The translations under genes and the position numbers were made by a program. DNA of 64,000 nucleotides from a virus. Location: the IMG/VR virus record IMGVR_UViG_3300026183_000827; one strand, given 5' to 3'. Below, in pieces: positions 1-42,171 of the stretch. Positions within the stretch are counted from its first letter, which is position 1; every line of letters begins with the position of its first letter. The notes below the pieces were generated by a model. It saw only the letters and a program-made list of their open reading frames with translations. It did not search any database and was not told the DNA's origin.

Positions 1-1
1 T

Positions 2-517
2 GGACTGTGGTTATACACAGAAGAGGAAAGCCAACAATTGAAATACAAGCAGGACTTGAGTTTATACCGCTTAGGCAATCAGGACGATTTGGTTATCCCG
101 CCCAATGGTTATCAAATGACACAAGGTTTCCACACTTTCGACCATCCTGTGCGTTTAGATAGTTTTCAACCGCACGGACATCTGCGTATGAACGCAGCAA
201 GTTTAGAGATTTTTTATCCTGAAACTGGTAGAACAGAACCAGTAAGTCAAATCTCTAATTGGAGCGCAACCTGGCATCACAGTCATTTGTATGCTCCTGA
301 TGTAGCACCACTAATACCTGCGGGCGCAGTTATTATTCTCAAGCAATGGTATGACAACACTGCTGACAACAAAAACAATCCTGATCCCGATATGTGGGTA
401 ATGGGTGGTTCACGCACAGGCGATGAGATGACTCACGCTTGGCTTGCTATTACTCATTTAGATGAAGAAGGATACAACAAACTATTAGAGCAACGTAACA
501 TCACAGGAGATGATTAA
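2..517 (+). CDS. Copper type II (PHM/DBH-like) monooxygenase, C-terminal part (5' end lies outside the window)
   Basis: Frame is open from position 2. It has the CuM-type motif QPHGHLR and the C-terminal GDEM, and is paralogous to the C-terminal half of 878..2119. Confidence 0.75.
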   Translation, partial: GLWLYTEEESQQLKYKQDLSLYRLGNQDDLVIPPNGYQMTQGFHTFDHPVRLDSFQPHGHLRMNAASLEIFYPETGRTEPVSQISNWSATWHHSHLYAPDVAPLIPAGAVIILKQWYDNTADNKNNPDPDMWVMGGSRTGDEMTHAWLAITHLDEEGYNKLLEQRNITGDD

Positions 518-885
518 TGCCTACAGTAAAACAAGCAAGACAAGGTTTATGGGGAAGTGCAATAATATTTGTAGCACTTTTAATATTCCAATTGGTAGTA
601 TTATTAGGAGCAAGAACTCTATATGCACAAGAAGTGGATTTTAGTTCAGTAAAAGCAAAATGGAATACGTGTGCCGCTTGTCACGGTAACAAAGCACAAG
701 GCAAGCCAGGCTTTCCTGGTCTAAGTTTTCTTGAAGAAGATCATATTGTTGAAGCACTACAAGATTACAAAGCAGGAGTGTATCGTGGAGATATGAGCGG
801 TATTATGTTTGGACAAGCAGCAACACTAAGCGATGAAGAAATTATTTTGATGGCGAAATACATCAAGGAGATATCTAATGATTAA
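517..885 (+). CDS. Class I cytochrome c (c553/c4-like), exported or membrane-anchored
   Basis: Hydrophobic N-terminus, heme motif CAACH, candidate distal Met (GIM) and LSDEEI helix. Confidence 0.85.
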   Translation: MPTVKQARQGLWGSAIIFVALLIFQLVVLLGARTLYAQEVDFSSVKAKWNTCAACHGNKAQGKPGFPGLSFLEEDHIVEALQDYKAGVYRGDMSGIMFGQAATLSDEEIILMAKYIKEISND

Positions 886-2119
886 AATTTTACACACAAG
901 TTTTGTGGTGCTGTTGACAAGTGTACTAGGACTAGTAGCATTAGCAGCACGAGCACAAGACGTAGACTATGTACGTGATGTTGCACCTATTCTAATAGAG
1001 CAGTGTCAAATGTGCCACAGAGAAAATGGCATAGCACCGTGGGCAATGAGCAACTATCAAGTAGTACAGGCATTTGCTCCTGCAATCAAAGAAGCTATTG
1101 TATCAAAACGTATGCCACCTGGACAAATCAATCCCAAGTATAGAGACACTATCATCAATCACAGAACATTAAGTGATGATGAAATGAAAACTCTTGTAGA
1201 TTGGGTTGATGCAGGCGCACCAGTTGAAGGTGTAATAGATCCTTTAACACAAACAGTATACCCTGATTCAGAATGGGTACACGGTGAACCTGATATGATT
1301 GTTGAAGTACCTGCACAAGAAATACCTGCAGGGCCATCAGCAATACCATATCGTTATGTAGGAGTTGACCTAGGACTCACAGAAGATCGTTGGTTACGTG
1401 GTTCAGAGTTTTTACCTTCAGAACCTACTGTTATGCACCATATGTTAAACTCAGTGTCAGTGCCTGGTGAACGTAATATGAACTTGTTGGGTACACAAGG
1501 AGGCGAACAACAGAATATGGATTATGCTAGTATTAGTGCTTATGTTCCTGGCGGCGACCCTGACTACTATGATGAAAACACTGGCGGATTATTACGTGCA
1601 GGATCACAAGTAAACTTACAACTACATTACACACCAGACGGTACAGCACGTACTGACAAAGCACGAATTGGACTATACTTCCACGACGAAGGTGTAGTGC
1701 CAGAAGAAAGAATGGCAGGCGACTGTGCTTGTATATTCCCTAACACGTGGACACCTATTCCGCCATACGATCCTAACTTCAAACAAGAAGCTGATGTTGT
1801 ACTAAAGAATGATGTAATGTTGCATACATTTTTACCGCATATGCATTTCCGCGGTAAAGCAATGAGAGCAACAGCATATTATCCAGACGGTGAAGTAGAA
1901 GAACTTATTGATATTCCACGTTATGAATATGCTTGGCAACTTTCGTACACTTGGCGTGAACCTAAGTTTCTACCACAAGGTACGAGGTTACACGTAGAAG
2001 GATGGTTTGATAACTCAGCGGACAATCCAATGAATCCTGACCCAAGCAGAGAAGTACCTTGGGGACAGATGAGCGAGGATGAAATGTTCTTTGGAGCATT
2101 TACTTGGAAAAACCTATAA
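878..2119 (+). CDS. Secreted cytochrome c / copper type II (PHM-like) monooxygenase fusion
   Basis: Signal peptide ending ARA-Q; CQMCH heme motif plus MPP; CuH ligands HH (VMHHM) and LHY; CuM ligands PHMH and DEM. Confidence 0.8.
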   Translation: MIKILHTSFVVLLTSVLGLVALAARAQDVDYVRDVAPILIEQCQMCHRENGIAPWAMSNYQVVQAFAPAIKEAIVSKRMPPGQINPKYRDTIINHRTLSDDEMKTLVDWVDAGAPVEGVIDPLTQTVYPDSEWVHGEPDMIVEVPAQEIPAGPSAIPYRYVGVDLGLTEDRWLRGSEFLPSEPTVMHHMLNSVSVPGERNMNLLGTQGGEQQNMDYASISAYVPGGDPDYYDENTGGLLRAGSQVNLQLHYTPDGTARTDKARIGLYFHDEGVVPEERMAGDCACIFPNTWTPIPPYDPNFKQEADVVLKNDVMLHTFLPHMHFRGKAMRATAYYPDGEVEELIDIPRYEYAWQLSYTWREPKFLPQGTRLHVEGWFDNSADNPMNPDPSREVPWGQMSEDEMFFGAFTWKNL

Positions 2120-2401
2120 TTTACTTATAGGTATATCTGAACTGGCGTGGAGATTCCAAACTTGTTTGCGTTCCACGCCTTTCTTTTGAGCAAACACTTT
2201 AGCATCACAGTTTGAACATACGTGAAAATAGTTGTTGTTTAGACGCTTAGGATCCATGCTGCCTCTTGCACGTTCAAACTCTTCATCACAACTGTCGCAA
2301 CGAAACACACACATAGTCAATTCACGCTTGTAGGTGTGTTCTTTGCCCGTTTTACTAGTTCTAACGTGCCGCGTTTGTTTTTTATATTCTTTTATGAACA
2401 T
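2114..2401 (-). CDS. Small Zn-ribbon-like protein
   Basis: Two CxxC pairs (CDSC, CSNC); a TAAATA motif lies 5 nt before the ATG. Confidence 0.65.
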   Translation of the reverse strand: MFIKEYKKQTRHVRTSKTGKEHTYKRELTMCVFRCDSCDEEFERARGSMDPKRLNNNYFHVCSNCDAKVFAQKKGVERKQVWNLHASSDIPISKL

Positions 2402-2462: not shown

Positions 2463-2822
2463 ATGAGTATCTGTACACTTACTGATGCTGCAAAAGCACA
2501 AATTGATTTACTATGTGAGGAAAATTCGTGTTATGCAATTAGTTTAAACATCAAAGGCGGAGGTTGTGCAGGTTTTGAGTATGAATGGGGAATGATGCAG
2601 TCCCCTGAAGAGCTTGAAGAAGGCGACGAAGTTATTAAAACTGACAACAATTGCAGTTTTGTAATAGGCAAACACTCACTTATGTTTTTGATAGGAACAA
2701 CAGTTGACTATACACGCAGTTTAGTAGGTTCAACTTTTGAAATAAAAAATCCTAATGCCCAATCGTCGTGCGGTTGTGGTGTTAGTGTAAACTTTGATAT
2801 GGATAGTATTCCACAAATTTAA
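2463..2822 (+). CDS. iscA: Fe-S cluster A-type carrier (IscA/SufA/HesB)
   Basis: GGGCAGF and NPNAQSSCGCG motifs. Confidence 0.92.
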   Translation: MSICTLTDAAKAQIDLLCEENSCYAISLNIKGGGCAGFEYEWGMMQSPEELEEGDEVIKTDNNCSFVIGKHSLMFLIGTTVDYTRSLVGSTFEIKNPNAQSSCGCGVSVNFDMDSIPQI

Positions 2823-5800: not shown

Positions 5801-8800
5801 CATATGATGGATTTAACGGCGACGGCGATCCAGCAGAATGGACTGCTTCTACACTATATAGATTAGGTAACGTAGTAAAATATTTTATTGGAGGTGAAGA
5901 TCGTTATTATACTCCAACAACAGAACACACATCGGGTAATACATTTAATGCAGTTGAAATAGCTAATTTTTGGAGACAAATAGACGGACCACAAAATGTT
6001 GTATATAACTTGATTGAAACAGTTGTATTTGCATTTAATGATGATTATAATCCGCCATTAAGAAACACAGAAATGGATGTGTTCCTAATGAATGATGCTA
6101 CTATTCTACGTAACATTACTGGACAAGGACACGGCGGTTTCCAGATGGTACTTGATCCTGAAGGGCAAGTACTTACTAAATCACCTTATTGTCAAACTGG
6201 TACAGGTTTTGCCGCAAGTATTAACAAACAAGCATTCCGAGGAGGATTATTTGTTGATGCATTCGTAGGTAACTCAGCAGTTCAAGTTGTTGAAAGAGTA
6301 GACGGTGATGCATTTAGATTAAGCATACAGAGTTTAGGTAGTGCATTAGAACCACAAGGATTATTTGTTAGAAGACCAGAAACTCCAAGTGTATTTTATA
6401 TTGATGGTAGACGCTTCCAGATTAACGCAGTCACACAGTACGATAAAGAACTAGGAACAGCAGAACTAATATTGTCACCGGGCTCAAATGACGGTCAAGG
6501 ATTTGCAGGACTAACTAGTGAATTATCTACAGGAGTAGATCTCGACGATTTAAGTTCGCCTATTCCAATTACATTGCAAACAGCTGGTAACAGAAGTATG
6601 CTAGGTAACGACTTTACTCAAATTAATGATAAAGGTTATGGTCTAGTTTGTGTAAACGGTGCGCTATCAGAAATGGTTAGTATGTTTACGTACTATTGTT
6701 GGACCAGTTACTATGCTAAAAATGGATCAGAGATTAGATCGCTAACAGGCTCAAGCTGTTATGGTGAATACGGTCTAGTTGCTGAAGGATCAGATCCAAA
6801 CGAAATTCCAGACAGTATTGCACTTGCACAAGACATGGTTGAAAGTGCAAAAACATTTAGTGCTAACGTAATTTTAGAACTTGCAGGTCCGATTATACTA
6901 GAAGAAGGCGAAATAATAACACAAAACATAACAAATGCTACAGGTACTGTATCTAAAGATACGAGTCAACTAGGAGATAGCGTAGCTGTTCCTATCGGAG
7001 AATCAGTAATATATTTAAAAGATACTTCAGGTGCTTTTGATACAACAAACGAACTAGTAGTTACTGGCCCAATTACAGGAGATTCTACTGCAATAGCATT
7101 AGGCTCGGATAGCATACCTATAAGAGTAGATAGCACAGGTTATGCTAACGAAAAATTAAATCTATTCTTATATGCTTATGACTTTAAAGAACTTCCTAGC
7201 AATAGATCAGAATTTGATATATATCACCCTGATCGTCCTGCTTTTGCACGTTATGAAGTTGCAAATGTTGCACCAACAGCCGCTCATATAGGAAGAATAA
7301 GATATTTAGGCGGTGATATTCCATTTAAGAACGAAGTTTTAGATAACGGTTTAGCAGCAGGTGTTACATTTACTTTATACAAAACTATTAGAGATGGTTA
7401 CAGTATAGAGATAAACAATCCTGGCAGTAATTATACAGTTGGCGACACTATGGAAGTTGACGGATTGTATTTAGGCGGCGGCACAATTGAAAATGATGCA
7501 TTTATTACAATTACTGAAGTTGATGGCGGATCTGTAACAGGCGCAACAATAACAGGATCTCCGTTTGTAGATTCTAATAGCCCAATGTATAGTGGTAAAG
7601 TTTACAAACTAAATTTCTCAACTAGTGACTCACAGTTTAGTACAGATGGGTTATTAGAGGATGTAGGATTTGGTGATAGAATTAACTATAGAAGAAACCA
7701 AACTCATACTATTTCAGACTTTGCAAGACCAGATATTCTTACAATTCGTCCAAGTACTGCTGTTATCTTTAACGAAAATCCAGACTTTGTTTATAGAAGT
7801 ATTAGTTTCTTAACATCAGATAGTCTAGGCAATGAATTAGAAAATGATCAATTACAATCAGGTTTTGATAGTTCATATGATTATATTAGATTGATTATAG
7901 ATAGTGCAAAAGCCCAAGAAATTCCTTTAGCAGGATTAGGAACAACCAAAGGCGGCACAATTGGAGACAGAGTTCTTGCAGTACAACCAACACTAGATGA
8001 TAATGAAATTTCTAGATTGAATAATAATGCTAGAACTCCTGAAGCTAATAGACCGATTGGTTGGACAGTGGAAAACTTACAAGAAGCTCCTATATTTACA
8101 TGGAGTGGTAAAAAGTTTTATGTGTATAATGCAAGAGGAGTAGATGGAACTAATACAGAAGTTCCGTTAGCCGAAGACAATGAATATGTAATTGTCGACA
8201 TTGAAGTAATCGACAGTATTAATTTAGAAGATTATTCTAATCCAGGCGGATTAGAAGAGGGGTTAGGCTCTCCTGTTGTATTAGGGTCAGAAACTGTAAC
8301 AATTAGAGCAGGTCTAAAAGCTGGTGCTGAAGGAACAGTAACAGTTAATATTTCAACTTGTCGTGCTACATCACATGACTTCTTAGATGTTGGATCGGGC
8401 GGGTTTAATGAATCCAATTATCCTACAGTTATTTTTGGTGAACCAGCCTCAAAAGATCAAGCAAAAGAAGTTGACGAACGTGGTAAAGGTCGTGTGTTCT
8501 ATGTAAGTACAGACCAAAACGGTATCTTTAGAGTTGGTAGATTCTTTAGCGTTGACCAAGGTACTGGTACAGTTACATTTAGTGCGTCACTTGCACTTTC
8601 AGATGTTGATGGACTAGGTTTTAAACGTGGTGTTGTTATTACTGAATTCTCAACAGATACAGCAATGACAGATAATGCATCAGATACTGTTCCGACAGAA
8701 CTTGCTGTACGTGGTTATGTTAACAGAAGACTAGGTTACGATGTAAACGGTACTCCTGTTTCAAACAAATTAGGTCCAGGTGTACTTGCTCCTAACGGTG

Positions 8801-39951: not shown

Positions 39952-42171
39952 ATGAAGTGGCGCGACATAAAAGAAGATGGTAGAATAGTCAAAGGTGTTA
40001 ACACTACTGTTGACGTGGGCACTGATGAGATCAAAAAGCAGGCAGCAAAATTTGGATTTAAGGTAGACAAGGACGGACGTCCACAAAATCATCCAACTAA
40101 AATTAAAGGTAAATCAACTAATGTATTGTTTAATCTAGGATTAGCAGAAAGTGTTGCTATTAAGTTTGAACGTACAGACGAGTATGACATACTCCATATT
40201 AAAGAAAAAGGTAAAAACCGTGTAGAAGTACGTGGCAAAAAAGGATACGAAAGCGGCAACTACGATCCTAAAGACAAGTTACACCGTGTATTAGATAAAC
40301 TAGGTAAGGCTGCTAATATAAGTGAACTTATGAACGGAGAAACTGTTGTCCTTAATCCTAAACATCCAGACGGTCCTCGTGCTATCAAAACAGTAACATC
40401 TGAATGTCCTAGGACCAAAGCATCTAGTTGTCAATGCGAAAGTGTTAACAAAGTAACAGAAGCACAAGAAACTGTAACAGCAGTATGTGAATTATATCCT
40501 AATGACAATGTTGAAGGGACAATCCTATTTAAGCAACAACCTAATAAACCTACATTAATAATTGGAGAAATCAAAGGATTATCTCCGGGCAAGCATGGTT
40601 TTCATATACACGAATTCGGCGATTTAAGTAAAGGTTGCGAAAGTGCAGGTGGACACTACAACCCAGATAGAATAGATCATGGAGATTTATCTAAAGGTCA
40701 TGTTGGTGATTTAGGTAATATTACAGCAGACGAGAACGGAATAGCAGAAATCCGTATAGTTGCTAAACGAGTAGACTTATTAGGTGAAAGAAGTGTTGTC
40801 GGCAGGTCTGTTGTAGTGCATAGTGATGTTGATGATCTAGGCAGAGGCGACAACGAAGAAAGTTTAAAAACCGGTAATGCAGGCGATAGATTAGCTTGTG
40901 GAGTAATCGTTATGAAAGAAACAGTTAATGAAACAACAGTATATTCTAGAGACGAATTACCACAAATTAAAAACAAACAATTATCAAAACTAAAACATAC
41001 TATAGAAACAGTTGCGCTTGCAGATATAATACCTGTGCAAGAAGAACGTATTGTAGAAAATTTTAAACGTCAAGTTGATAATATTGTTGCTGGCAAGTAT
41101 AAACCAATTATTGTTGATTATAATAATAAAATTGTAAATGGCCATCATAGATACACTGCACTGGAAATGCTAGGCTATGAAAGTATAGAAGTTGCACGTT
41201 TGCCTTGGAGTTTGGAAACAATATTAGAAAAGTGGAGTCAAAAATATAAGCGTAGTATTAATTGCAACAATCCTAAAGGCTTTTCGCAGAAAGCACATTG
41301 TCAAGGACGTAAGAAAAAAGAAAGTATAGAAGAAGGTAAATTAAAATCTAAATCATATAAAAAAGCAGTTAAAGCAGCAGCAATGCAAGGTAAACGTCCT
41401 AAGAAAAAACTTAAAACAAAATTCAGTGAAAACTTTGCTAAAGCAGCAAAAGAAGATTTACTTGCATACAAGAGAATTATAGGACTTGCTAAAAAGGCTT
41501 ATGAAACTAATGAAATAGATCCTTACTTTTATGATGCAGTTAAAATCACTTTTGATATGAACTTGTATAAAAAAAATCCTAAACTTTTAAGCACACTTTT
41601 AAAAGTAGGCAGAAACCTAGCCAAAGAAGATTGGCCGGAAGTTGTTCAAGATATTAAGAAAAATACAGGCATTGATTTAGAAGCACATATTAGTGAAAAC
41701 TTTGCTGAAGGAAATTTACTTGCTAATCCACAGAATAGTGTGTTAGTAAAAAAAGAATATCCTTACGATTGGTATAAAATTGGCACACAGATTGCTAATC
41801 TTGACAATGTATCTCAACATATAAAGGATAGAAATAGACAAGATATCTATATTCAATTCTTTGGTGGAGAAAAAGAAAAAGAATTTATGATGAAAAAGTT
41901 AGGTGCTATTGGTTACGATGTTCAAGACGCTGACGGTTATCGTGATATGCACTTTGATGAGAATACTGAAGGTAGTTACATCCTTAGAATTAGAGAAAAC
42001 TTTGCTGATGGTAAAACAGATAGTAAAAGCAGACCAGGGCGTGTAAAGCGTTCAGGTGCTAGTTGTAATGGCAGTGTAACAGCATTACGCAAACGTGCTA
42101 AGAATGCAAGTGGTGAGAAGGCTAAGATGTACCACTGGTGTGCTAATATGAAAAGCGGAAGGAAAAAGTAA
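39952..42171 (+). CDS. Multidomain polyprotein containing Cu/Zn superoxide dismutase and ParB/Srx-like domains
   Basis: SOD: HGFHIHEFGD, GCESAGGHYNP, HVGDLGN, GRSVVVH, GNAGDRLACG. ParB-like: PIIVD...IVNGHHR. Confidence 0.88.
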   Translation: MKWRDIKEDGRIVKGVNTTVDVGTDEIKKQAAKFGFKVDKDGRPQNHPTKIKGKSTNVLFNLGLAESVAIKFERTDEYDILHIKEKGKNRVEVRGKKGYESGNYDPKDKLHRVLDKLGKAANISELMNGETVVLNPKHPDGPRAIKTVTSECPRTKASSCQCESVNKVTEAQETVTAVCELYPNDNVEGTILFKQQPNKPTLIIGEIKGLSPGKHGFHIHEFGDLSKGCESAGGHYNPDRIDHGDLSKGHVGDLGNITADENGIAEIRIVAKRVDLLGERSVVGRSVVVHSDVDDLGRGDNEESLKTGNAGDRLACGVIVMKETVNETTVYSRDELPQIKNKQLSKLKHTIETVALADIIPVQEERIVENFKRQVDNIVAGKYKPIIVDYNNKIVNGHHRYTALEMLGYESIEVARLPWSLETILEKWSQKYKRSINCNNPKGFSQKAHCQGRKKKESIEEGKLKSKSYKKAVKAAAMQGKRPKKKLKTKFSENFAKAAKEDLLAYKRIIGLAKKAYETNEIDPYFYDAVKITFDMNLYKKNPKLLSTLLKVGRNLAKEDWPEVVQDIKKNTGIDLEAHISENFAEGNLLANPQNSVLVKKEYPYDWYKIGTQIANLDNVSQHIKDRNRQDIYIQFFGGEKEKEFMMKKLGAIGYDVQDADGYRDMHFDENTEGSYILRIRENFADGKTDSKSRPGRVKRSGASCNGSVTALRKRAKNASGEKAKMYHWCANMKSGRKK
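41428..42006 (+). repeat. Three exact in-frame copies of GAAAACTTTGCT (ENFA)
   Basis: Copies at 41428-39, 41695-706 and 41995-42006. Confidence 0.85.

What the first reader, a model, noticed from the sequence alone, without database searches (positions are those of the whole stretch)
2..2119. Phage-borne copper monooxygenase system: two PHM/DBH-like enzymes flanking a cytochrome c
Seen: 878..2119 has a signal peptide, an N-terminal heme c motif (CQMCH) and all six expected copper ligands (HH and H for CuH; HxH and M for CuM). 2..517 is the C-terminal half of a paralog (HGH...EM). A monoheme cytochrome c (CAACH) is translationally coupled between them. Established: PHM and DBH are two-copper monooxygenases that use ascorbate as reductant in eukaryotes, and bacterial homologues are poorly characterised. 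Inference: this is an exported oxygenase module in which heme c replaces ascorbate. It would need the host's cytochrome c maturation and copper supply, and it sits next to virion genes in a phage, an unexpected auxiliary metabolic system with unknown substrate.
Basis: partly seen in the sequence, partly recalled or inferred. Interest (0 to 1): 0.82.

Follow-up and report, generated by a model that had tools for sequence, protein, structure and literature searches.

The report
Phage haem-copper monooxygenase pair
An uncultured marine giant phage carries two exported enzymes, each a cytochrome c fused to a two-copper oxygenase of the kind animals use to make noradrenaline and amidated hormones. 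A small extra cytochrome c gene lies between them, the cassette is real and common in ocean phages, and what it oxidises is unknown.

Summary
ORF3 (878-2119, 413 aa) and ORF1 are 28%-identical paralogs. ORF1 is complete in the parent record: 424 aa, starting 757 nt before the window.

- **Architecture.** Each has a signal peptide, a CxxCH...M haem c domain and a PHM/DBH-fold core.
- **Fold.** AlphaFold2 pLDDT is 90 and 88. VIA-align gives Z of about 20 to DBH and PHM; the next fold scores about 9.
- **Copper ligands.** Family profiles place HH, H and HxH on the known copper histidines. All six ligands are invariant in 60 and 76 viral copies, and dN/dS is about 0.09.
- **Cytochrome gene.** ORF2 (517-885) is a cytochrome c553-like gene that overlaps both neighbours. 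It occurs in only 11 of 80 related loci.
- **Not a chimera.** Phage genes flank the cassette within the 126-kb record, a jumbo phage whose polymerase is nearest Atu_ph07 and 121Q. The pair recurs in 112 IMG/VR contigs and at least six gene orders.
- **Cellular relatives.** They number thousands and are uncharacterised. Most carry an extra redoxin domain that the phage genes lack.

The best reading is periplasmic, cytochrome-c-driven copper monooxygenases with an unknown substrate. This scan found the same cassette earlier on other phage DNA, and I found no publication describing it. It is a new variant of a known enzyme kind.

The parts
2..517 (+). C-terminal 171 aa of ORF1. This is haem c / PHM-DBH-like paralog 1. 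The full gene is 424 aa and starts 757 nt upstream of the window (L002:1420-2691:-).
   Evidence: AlphaFold2 pLDDT 87.6. VIA-align Z 20.2 to DBH 4zel and 20.0 to PHM.
173..181 (+). ORF1 H311-G-H313, the predicted CuM histidines.
   Evidence: Invariant in 60 viral copies and in alignment A4.
428..430 (+). ORF1 M396 in the DEM motif, the predicted CuM methionine.
   Evidence: Invariant. It lies 11 residues before the end of the stretch aligned to PHM, as PHM M314 does.
517..885 (+). ORF2, a monohaem cytochrome c (c553-like) of 122 aa with an N-terminal signal peptide or membrane anchor.
   Evidence: Pfam Cytochrom_C 2.9e-7, above its cut-off. Sources name relatives cytochrome c553. It overlaps ORF1 by 1 nt and ORF3 by 8 nt. 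It occupies this position in 11 of 80 related loci.
670..684 (+). ORF2 CAACH haem-attachment motif (residues 52-56).
   Evidence: Read from the sequence.
878..2119 (+). ORF3, haem c / PHM-DBH-like paralog 2, 413 aa.
   Evidence: AlphaFold2 pLDDT 90.1, pTM 0.84. Foldseek PHM 3.5e-12 and DBH 2.8e-11. VIA-align Z 20.1 and 19.9. Family profile against DBH 6.5e-8 and PHM about 1e-4.
878..958 (+). ORF3 signal peptide, about residues 1-27 (hydrophobic core, then ARA-Q).
   Evidence: Read from the sequence. The model shows a helix at residues 2-26. No signal-peptide predictor was available.
1004..1018 (+). ORF3 CQMCH haem c motif (residues 43-47).
   Evidence: At least 90% conserved in 82 relatives and invariant in 76 viral copies. 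The domain resembles the haem c domain of hydrazine synthase alpha.
1112..1114 (+). ORF3 M79 in the MPP motif, the predicted sixth haem ligand.
   Evidence: Invariant column in A1 and in the viral copies.
1436..1441 (+). ORF3 H187-H188, predicted CuH ligands.
   Evidence: Aligned to the HHM motif of PHM and DBH. Invariant.
1625..1627 (+). ORF3 H250, the predicted third CuH ligand.
   Evidence: Aligned to LQVHY of PHM and LEVHY of DBH. At least 90% conserved and invariant in the viral copies.
1838..1846 (+). ORF3 H321-M-H323, predicted CuM histidines.
   Evidence: Aligned to HTH of PHM and DBH. Invariant in the viral copies.
2084..2086 (+). ORF3 M403 in the DEM motif, the predicted CuM methionine.
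   Evidence: At least 90% conserved. It lies 10 residues before the end of the stretch aligned to PHM residues ..324, as M314 does.

Best explanation
The cassette encodes two Sec-exported periplasmic enzymes. Each joins a His/Met-ligated monohaem cytochrome c domain to a PHM/DBH-type catalytic core with two copper sites (CuH: His3; CuM: His2Met).

Proposed mechanism (inferred, not shown):
1. After infection the host Sec system exports the proteins. The host Ccm machinery attaches haem and the host supplies copper.
2. Electrons from the host periplasmic cytochrome c pool reach the fused haem domain. In this phage the cassette's own c553-like ORF2 may relay or supplement them.
3. The haem reduces CuH, doing the job that ascorbate does in animals.
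4. CuM binds O2 and hydroxylates a C-H bond of a substrate that is still unknown.

PHM's carboxylate-binding Arg is not kept, so the substrate is probably not peptidylglycine. The two paralogs belong to different old subfamilies and are always inherited together, so they probably act on two substrates or on two steps. The cassette is mobile auxiliary cargo of marine T4-like and jumbo myoviruses and is kept under strong purifying selection.
For: - **Fold.** AlphaFold2 models are confident (pLDDT 90.1 and 87.6). PHM and DBH are the only strong structural matches: Foldseek 3.5e-12 and 2.8e-11; VIA-align Z 19-20 over 240-270 residues, with the next fold at Z about 9.
- **Sequence.** The family profile hits DBH at 6.5e-8 and PHM at about 1e-4. 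HH, H and HxH fall exactly on the copper histidines.
- **Conservation.** All six copper ligands, CxxCH and the axial Met are invariant in 60 and 76 phage copies. They are conserved across 82 distant relatives.
- **Selection.** Median dN/dS is 0.09 for both genes.
- **Cytochrome c.** The three cytochrome c matches in the 126-kb record are exactly these three genes. ORF2 passes the Pfam cut-off and is coupled by overlapping stop and start codons.
- **Host dependence.** No Ccm, SCO1 or PCuAC gene was found in the record.
- **Phage setting.** Flanking genes are a phage tail fibre and baseplate, a DNA polymerase, a ligase and others. The pair occurs in 112 IMG/VR contigs and at least six gene orders.
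- **Origin.** Each phage clade is monophyletic and sits inside cellular diversity.
- **Precedent.** Copper nitrite reductases with a tethered cytochrome c show that a fused cytochrome c can act as redox partner of a copper enzyme (abstract of PMC13324648, listed).
Against: - No biochemical data exist for any member of this family.
- ORF3 alone is below the Pfam Cu2_monoox_C cut-off.
- I could not read model coordinates, so the geometry of the copper sites and the haem-to-CuH distance were not measured.
- PHM's substrate-binding Arg240 is Leu or another residue here (alignment), so the chemistry may differ.
- ORF2 is missing from most cassettes (11 of 80 loci), so it cannot be essential.
- Most cellular relatives carry an AhpC/TSA-like redoxin domain that the phage genes lack. 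That domain could point to peroxide or thiol chemistry.
- Bacterial neighbourhoods show no conserved operon that would suggest a pathway.
- There is no expression evidence.
Confidence: 0.6

Rival explanations
1. The proteins are oxidases or reactive-oxygen enzymes with no organic substrate. They would take electrons from the cytochrome c pool and reduce O2 or peroxide. That would make them an electron sink or an oxidative-stress device during infection.
For: Most cellular relatives fuse the same core to an AhpC/TSA peroxiredoxin-like domain. The same phage encodes a protein with a Cu/Zn superoxide dismutase domain. No substrate-binding residues of PHM are recognisable.
Against: The full CuM His2Met set is strictly kept; by established knowledge this is the hallmark of the C-H hydroxylating members. 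Two divergent paralogs kept side by side fit two substrates better than one sink. The phage genes lack the redoxin domain.
Confidence: 0.17
2. The proteins act on the cell envelope or on the virion. They would be late-expressed enzymes that modify an envelope or virion component, for example for lysis timing, superinfection exclusion or fibre decoration. In that case they are not metabolic genes.
For: The cassette sits beside structural or lysis genes in every context. Here that is a 2644-aa tail-fibre-like gene. Elsewhere it follows a gp23-like capsid gene, or sits next to a holin-like gene and a lysozyme. A TATAAATA late-promoter-like box lies upstream of the cluster.
Against: Signal peptides send the proteins to the periplasm, away from virion assembly. 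Structural matches to capsid jelly rolls are weak (Z 6-8) against Z 20 for PHM and DBH. Cargo islands in T4-like phages often lie between structural modules (own knowledge).
Confidence: 0.13
3. The segment is bacterial DNA joined to the phage contig by misassembly, or dead cargo that is not used.
For: GC content of the first 2 kb is 41% against about 35% for the rest of the window. No match was found in 50,697 deposited phage genomes. One close copy sits in a contig binned as a Pseudomonadales MAG.
Against: The cassette lies 35 kb inside the record with PHROG-matching phage genes on both sides. The identical gene order (small TM ORF, ORF1, ORF3, zinc-ribbon gene, HesB, giant fibre) recurs in about 17 contigs from other samples. 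dN/dS is 0.09 and all ligands are invariant. The nearest cellular protein is only 52% identical.
Confidence: 0.02
4. The proteins are copper- or haem-binding proteins for metal capture or storage, not catalysts.
For: The phage also carries metal-related cargo: HesB/IscA and IscU-like genes, a haem-oxygenase-like gene upstream, and an SOD domain.
Against: A fused electron-transfer haem together with the complete catalytic ligand set of an O2-activating enzyme is unnecessary for storage. Both features are kept under strong purifying selection.
Confidence: 0.05

Closest known systems
Peptidylglycine alpha-hydroxylating monooxygenase (PHM, EC 1.14.17.3; PDB 1PHM, 1OPM, 1SDW)
   Same: It shares the two jelly-roll domain fold (VIA-align Z 19-20, rmsd 2.5-3.1 A over about 243 residues). 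The HH...H and HxH...M ligand pattern is the same, and profile alignment puts the five histidines on the PHM ligands.
   Different: Identity is only 11-16%. PHM has no haem domain and uses ascorbate. PHM's substrate-binding Arg240, two residues before H242, is not conserved. The phage family has its own invariant motifs (HxHxRG, FDNSxxNPxNPDP). The phage proteins are prokaryotic and periplasmic, whereas PHM works in secretory granules.
Dopamine beta-hydroxylase / tyramine beta-monooxygenase (DBH, PDB 4ZEL)
   Same: It gives the best profile hit (6.5e-8) and the best Z (20.1 and 20.2). Like DBH, the phage proteins carry an extra N-terminal domain in front of the catalytic core.
   Different: DBH's N-terminal domain is a DOMON domain, not a cytochrome c. 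DBH is ascorbate-dependent and acts on phenylethylamines. Nothing suggests that substrate here.
Uncharacterised bacterial family with redoxin (AhpC/TSA-like), cytochrome c and Cu2_monoox_C-like domains, annotated 'mono/diheme cytochrome c family protein' or hypothetical
   Same: These are true homologues over the whole cytochrome c plus copper core. There are 12,213 clusters at E of 0.001 or better. The nearest is 52% identical and comes from Gammaproteobacteria (Steroidobacteraceae and Pseudohongiellaceae MAGs).
   Different: The phage genes lack the N-terminal redoxin domain of about 190 aa that most cellular forms carry. They form their own clades and always occur as a pair drawn from two subfamilies.
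Copper nitrite reductases with a tethered cytochrome c (three-domain CuNiR)
   Same: Same design principle: a class I cytochrome c fused to a copper enzyme as a built-in electron donor (abstract of PMC13324648, listed).
   Different: The fold (cupredoxin trimer) and the chemistry (nitrite reduction) are unrelated. This is an analogy only.
Viral PQQ-related auxiliary genes (pqqA and methanol dehydrogenase in Lake Baikal methylotroph phages, PMC7678222)
   Same: Both are periplasmic-redox cargo in aquatic phages. A pqqA-like peptide follows the ORF3 gene directly in four related jumbo-phage contigs (L055-L058).
   Different: This record has no pqqA at that position. A functional link between PQQ enzymes, cytochrome c and these oxygenases is speculation.

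Membership tests
Copper type II ascorbate-dependent monooxygenase superfamily (PHM/DBH; Pfam PF01082 and PF03712) | Two-domain antiparallel beta-sandwich catalytic core | tested here: met
   Foldseek PHM 3.5e-12 and DBH 2.8e-11. VIA-align Z 19-20 for both paralogs, with the next fold at Z about 9.
Copper type II ascorbate-dependent monooxygenase superfamily (PHM/DBH; Pfam PF01082 and PF03712) | CuH site: three histidines (HH and H; PHM H107, H108, H172) | tested here: met
   The profile alignment puts family VvHH on vHHM of PHM and DBH, and lqlHY on LQVHY and LEVHY. The residues are invariant. The 3D geometry was not measured.
Copper type II ascorbate-dependent monooxygenase superfamily (PHM/DBH; Pfam PF01082 and PF03712) | CuM site: HxH plus Met (PHM H242, H244, M314) | tested here: met
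   PHmH aligns on HTH. The Met of DEM lies 10-11 residues before the end of the stretch aligned to PHM residue 324-325, as M314 does. It is invariant. The Met assignment rests on position, not on a residue-level alignment.
Copper type II ascorbate-dependent monooxygenase superfamily (PHM/DBH; Pfam PF01082 and PF03712) | Pfam model score above the gathering cut-off | tested here: not met
   ORF3 scores 11.4 bits against 23 and ORF1 has no hit. Of ten cellular relatives, one passes (25.2 bits) and seven give sub-threshold hits. This is a divergent branch that the current models do not capture.
Copper type II ascorbate-dependent monooxygenase superfamily (PHM/DBH; Pfam PF01082 and PF03712) | Ascorbate as the physiological reductant | not testable with these tools
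   The fused cytochrome c domain argues for a different donor. That is inference only.
PHM proper (EC 1.14.17.3) | Arg240 (with Tyr318 and Asn316) binding the C-terminal carboxylate of peptidylglycine | tested here: not met
   In the alignment, PHM Y-R-V-H-T-H lies over family l-l-P-H-m-H, so Arg240 falls on Leu. Tyr318 and Asn316 were not aligned. I therefore do not file these proteins as PHM.
Class I c-type cytochrome | CxxCH haem-attachment motif with a distal Met ligand | tested here: met
   ORF2 has CAACH and passes Pfam at 32.1 bits against 21.3. ORF1 has CVVCH and M69; ORF3 has CQMCH and M79. These are invariant. The fused domains match PF00034 below its cut-off (E 4.4e-4 and 5e-3) and match the haem domain of hydrazine synthase alpha.
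Class I c-type cytochrome | Covalently bound haem after export | not testable with these tools
   This needs expression with Ccm followed by haem staining or mass spectrometry.
Bacterial redoxin / cytochrome c / Cu2_monoox-like family | Homology across the cytochrome c and copper domains | tested here: met
   phmmer 1.1e-130 to P0121 at 52% identity, and 1,675 clusters at E of 1e-30 or better.
Bacterial redoxin / cytochrome c / Cu2_monoox-like family | N-terminal AhpC/TSA-like redoxin domain | tested here: not met
   Both phage proteins go straight from the signal peptide to the cytochrome c domain. The redoxin domain is present in most cellular forms of 580-650 aa. Short cellular forms without it also exist.

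The most novel reading that the evidence does not exclude
These proteins found a previously unrecognised enzyme class: PHM/DBH-type two-copper monooxygenases that draw their electrons from the respiratory cytochrome c pool through a built-in haem c. Ocean phages spread a two-enzyme version, optionally with its own cytochrome c or with pqqA, to rewire periplasmic oxidation in infected cells. For example, they might oxidise or dealkylate an abundant dissolved organic compound to feed phage production.
Probability: 0.4. Interest if true: 0.85.

Novelty: new variant of a known kind. Interest (0 to 1): 0.7.

Why it matters
PHM and DBH chemistry is known almost only from animals, with ascorbate as the electron donor. 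Here the same copper core is fused to a cytochrome c. It is exported, it is carried by many ocean phages from several lineages, and selection keeps it intact.

If the proteins are active, three things follow:
- The cofactor logic of this enzyme class would extend from ascorbate to a haem donor.
- It would be one of the few exported, cofactor-heavy auxiliary gene sets known in phages. It depends on host haem attachment and copper supply.
- Phages would gain a role in periplasmic oxidation of an unknown marine substrate.

It would also give an experimental handle on a bacterial family of more than ten thousand sequence clusters that has no assigned function.

Tried and rejected
- **Pfam and NCBIfam on the single proteins.** No significant copper-monooxygenase hit. 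PHROGs gave none either.
- **phmmer of ORF3 against PDB.** Only the haem domain of hydrazine synthase came up.
- **A six-sequence profile (A2).** Too shallow to reach PHM. The 26- and 82-sequence profiles did reach it.
- **Deposited phage genomes.** megablast and tblastn found no match. BFVD viral structures gave only weak generic jelly-roll matches with TM of 0.33 or less.
- **Bacterial gene neighbourhoods.** 28 gammaproteobacterial loci showed no conserved operon. Neighbours were an MMPL transporter, an inositol monophosphatase, a thiolase, AbgT, a beta-lactamase-fold protein and others.
- **Complex prediction of ORF1 with ORF3.** No verdict (score 0.01). This is evidence neither for nor against a heterodimer.
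- **Pfam PqqA search of the record.** The search also rang in none of the control genomes, so it is uninformative. A motif scan found pqqA only in L055-L058.
- **Literature.** Seven searches found no paper on phage or bacterial cytochrome-c-fused PHM-like enzymes. Two marine-phage papers I checked mention none.
- **Chimeric assembly.** Considered and rejected; see the rival explanations.
Full report
**What is there**

The window is the reverse strand of bases 27365-91364 of a 126,256-bp IMG/VR virus record, which CheckV rates 34% complete. At its left edge are three same-strand genes.
- A 5'-open frame at 2-517.
- ORF2 at 517-885 (122 aa).
- ORF3 at 878-2119 (413 aa).

Reading the parent record shows that the open frame is the end of a complete 424-aa gene, ORF1, which starts 757 nt before the window.

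ORF1 and ORF3 are 28% identical over their whole length (E 2.7e-33). They share one plan: a signal peptide, then CxxCH and a downstream invariant Met in an MPP motif, then about 280 residues carrying HH, H, HxH and a DEM methionine.

ORF1 and ORF2 share one base (TAATG). ORF2 and ORF3 overlap by 8 nt, and each downstream start has a ribosome-binding site.

**Are they PHM/DBH-like?**

ORF3 alone does not pass the Pfam model: Cu2_monoox_C gives E 0.22 and 11.4 bits against a cut-off of 23. A plain sequence search of the PDB finds only the haem c domain of hydrazine synthase.

The family as a whole settles the question.
- An exhaustive search found 12,213 sequence clusters at E of 0.001 or better.
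- A profile of 26 members hits human DBH at 6.5e-8 and rat PHM at about 1e-4.
- Its alignments lay the family's VvHH, lqlHY and PHmH motifs on the HHM, L(Q/E)VHY and HTH motifs. By established knowledge these carry the CuH (H107, H108, H172) and CuM (H242, H244) histidines of PHM.

AlphaFold2 models of both paralogs are confident: pLDDT 90.1 with pTM 0.84, and pLDDT 87.6 with pTM 0.83.
- Foldseek returns PHM (3.5e-12) and DBH (2.8e-11) and nothing else of weight.
- VIA-align gives Z 20.1-20.2 to DBH and 19-20 to PHM over 240-270 residues at 2.5-3.4 A. The next unrelated fold scores about 9.
- The aligned ranges end at PHM residue 324-328. This puts M403 of ORF3 and M396 of ORF1 at the position of PHM M314.

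I could not read the model coordinates, so the copper-site geometry itself is untested.

**Conservation**
- CxxCH, the MPP methionine and all six copper ligands are invariant or at least 90% conserved in 82 diverse relatives.
- They are strictly invariant in 60 ORF1-type and 76 ORF3-type viral copies.
- Median pairwise dN/dS among phage copies is 0.09 for both genes.

These genes are in use. They are not decaying cargo.

**The phage setting**

Downstream lie a convergent 95-aa zinc-ribbon gene, a HesB/IscA-type Fe-S protein, a 2644-aa tail-fibre-like protein and baseplate-like genes.

Further on are a Clp-type ATPase, a protein with a Cu/Zn-SOD-like domain and a family B DNA polymerase. The polymerase is nearest to those of jumbo phages Phosso, Atu_ph07, Vibrio phage 2.275.O and 121Q, at 43-50% identity.

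The 11 kb upstream all match PHROG families: endonuclease, glycosyltransferase, QueD, a fibre-like structural protein, dCMP deaminase, DNA ligase and phosphoesterase.

A scan of IMG/VR found 112 contigs with a copy 75-91% identical. In the 80 contigs fetched, the ORF1-type and ORF3-type genes are neighbours in this order wherever both ends are present. They sit in at least six gene orders:
- the one seen here, in about 17 contigs;
- directly after a gp23-like capsid gene that is 72% identical to Methylophilales phage Melnitz and 66-67% to pelagimyophages;
- after an Hsp20 gene, next to a holin-like gene and a lysozyme;
- and others, including contigs of 217 and 340 kb.

No copy exists in 50,697 deposited phage genomes. 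BFVD holds no convincing structural relative. The one hit in the species genome set is a 7-kb contig binned as a Pseudomonadales MAG. It is probably a phage fragment, though I did not check this.

**The middle cytochrome c**

ORF2 passes Pfam Cytochrom_C and has relatives that sources name cytochrome c553. It occupies the same slot in 11 of 80 loci, spread over three gene orders. In 41 of 63 loci the two oxygenase genes abut.

ORF2 is therefore an optional part of the cassette. The three cytochrome c matches in the whole record are these three genes. No Ccm, SCO1 or PCuAC gene is present in the 126 kb, which is about a third of the predicted genome. This fits dependence on the host for haem attachment and copper.

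**Origin**

Most cellular relatives are 580-650 aa long and carry an extra N-terminal AhpC/TSA-like redoxin domain. The phage genes lack it.

In a maximum-likelihood tree:
- The ORF3-type phage genes form one clade (support 100). It sits inside a clade of redoxin-bearing proteins from gammaproteobacterial MAGs of Steroidobacteraceae and Pseudohongiellaceae (support 96). The closest is 52% identical.
- The ORF1-type genes form another clade (support 100) on a long stem. It lies inside a subfamily of short forms whose sampled relatives are mostly Acidobacteriota, at 45% identity or less.

The two genes are therefore old paralogs, not a phage duplication. Each seems to have entered phages once. 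The tree is unrooted, so the direction of transfer is inferred from nesting only. Bacterial neighbourhoods give no pathway clue.

**How it most likely works**

Shown here: the fold, the ligand pattern, the fused and the separate cytochrome c, the export signals, purifying selection and phage residence.

Inferred: the proteins are exported by Sec, receive haem from the host Ccm system and receive copper in the periplasm. The haem domain, fed by the periplasmic cytochrome c pool (here perhaps through ORF2), supplies the two electrons per turnover that ascorbate supplies to PHM and DBH. CuM then activates O2 and hydroxylates a substrate.

PHM's carboxylate-binding Arg240 is replaced. The family also has its own invariant motifs, HxHxRG and FDNSxxNPxNPDP. 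I therefore do not expect peptidylglycine to be the substrate, and I do not file these proteins as PHM.

The rivals are listed separately: an oxidase or reactive-oxygen role, an envelope or virion role, metal storage, and an assembly artefact. I give the monooxygenase reading about 0.6.

**Novelty**

Seven literature searches and three papers that I searched for key terms gave no description of such enzymes in phages, or of the cytochrome-c-fused bacterial family.

This scan has already reported the same cassette at least eight times on other phage DNA. Some of those reports include pqqA or small lipoproteins. I confirmed a pqqA-like peptide directly after the ORF3 gene in four related jumbo-phage contigs. 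It is absent here.

What this window adds is the variant with a dedicated cytochrome c between the two genes. It also shows that the cassette sits in a jumbo phage of the Atu_ph07/121Q polymerase group.

**Verdict**

The feature is real, under selection and widespread. It is a new variant of a known enzyme kind, its substrate is unknown, and it is worth experimental follow-up.

Noticed in passing
L055:9363, L057:9363, L056:3772 and L058:5138 (related jumbo-phage contigs, directly after the ORF3-type gene): A 23-aa pqqA-like peptide ([23 protein letters not shown]) sits between the ORF3-type gene and the zinc-ribbon gene. In this window that slot is empty: ORF3 and the zinc-ribbon gene overlap tail to tail.
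   Followed up: partly
L002:2790-2960 on the minus strand (about 90-250 nt upstream of the ORF1 start, outside the window): A TATAAATA box (the T4 late-promoter consensus) precedes a conserved 54-61-aa ORF with a hydrophobic stretch (MVQKWINARLKERTTLDG...), just upstream of ORF1. The ORF recurs in L007 and L030. TATAAATA is strongly depleted in the window: 1 copy against about 10 expected.
   Followed up: partly
window 2463-2822 (+); also about 12.5 kb upstream of the window (window coordinates -12900..-12481): The window gene is a HesB/IscA-type Fe-S assembly protein (TIGR00049, 1.3e-24). By its sequence, the upstream gene looks IscU-like. The record's upstream part also holds genes that, from their N-terminal sequences only, look like haem oxygenase, a PebS/PcyX-type bilin reductase, ClpP, ClpS and Hsp20. 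Together this would be a rich cofactor and proteostasis cargo.
   Followed up: partly
window 39952-42171 (+): A 739-aa protein joins a region matching a PHROG superoxide-dismutase-precursor family with a ParB-like region. It would be a second copper-related protein in the same phage.
   Followed up: no
window 2114-2401 (-): A 95-aa zinc-ribbon protein (two CxxC pairs) converges on ORF3 and overlaps it by 6 nt. It is conserved with the cassette in the jumbo-phage gene order (80-96% identical in about 17 contigs) but matches no family above threshold.
   Followed up: partly
L093:3490-4845 (-), with equivalents in four other gammaproteobacterial loci (L094, L096, L097, L103): In five marine gammaproteobacterial MAGs an FAD-linked oxidase with an ALO (D-arabinono-1,4-lactone oxidase) domain lies two genes from the cellular homologue. 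ALO enzymes make ascorbate-like reductants. This could be coincidence.
   Followed up: no
L098:1418-6993, L108 (two adjacent homologous ORFs of 569 and 591 aa, starting at 5968 and 7773): Some bacteria also carry two copies of the family close together or adjacent. Tandem pairs are therefore not unique to phages.
   Followed up: no
window 1-2000: GC content of the cassette is 41% against roughly 31-39% for most of the window. This fits acquired cargo.
   Followed up: no
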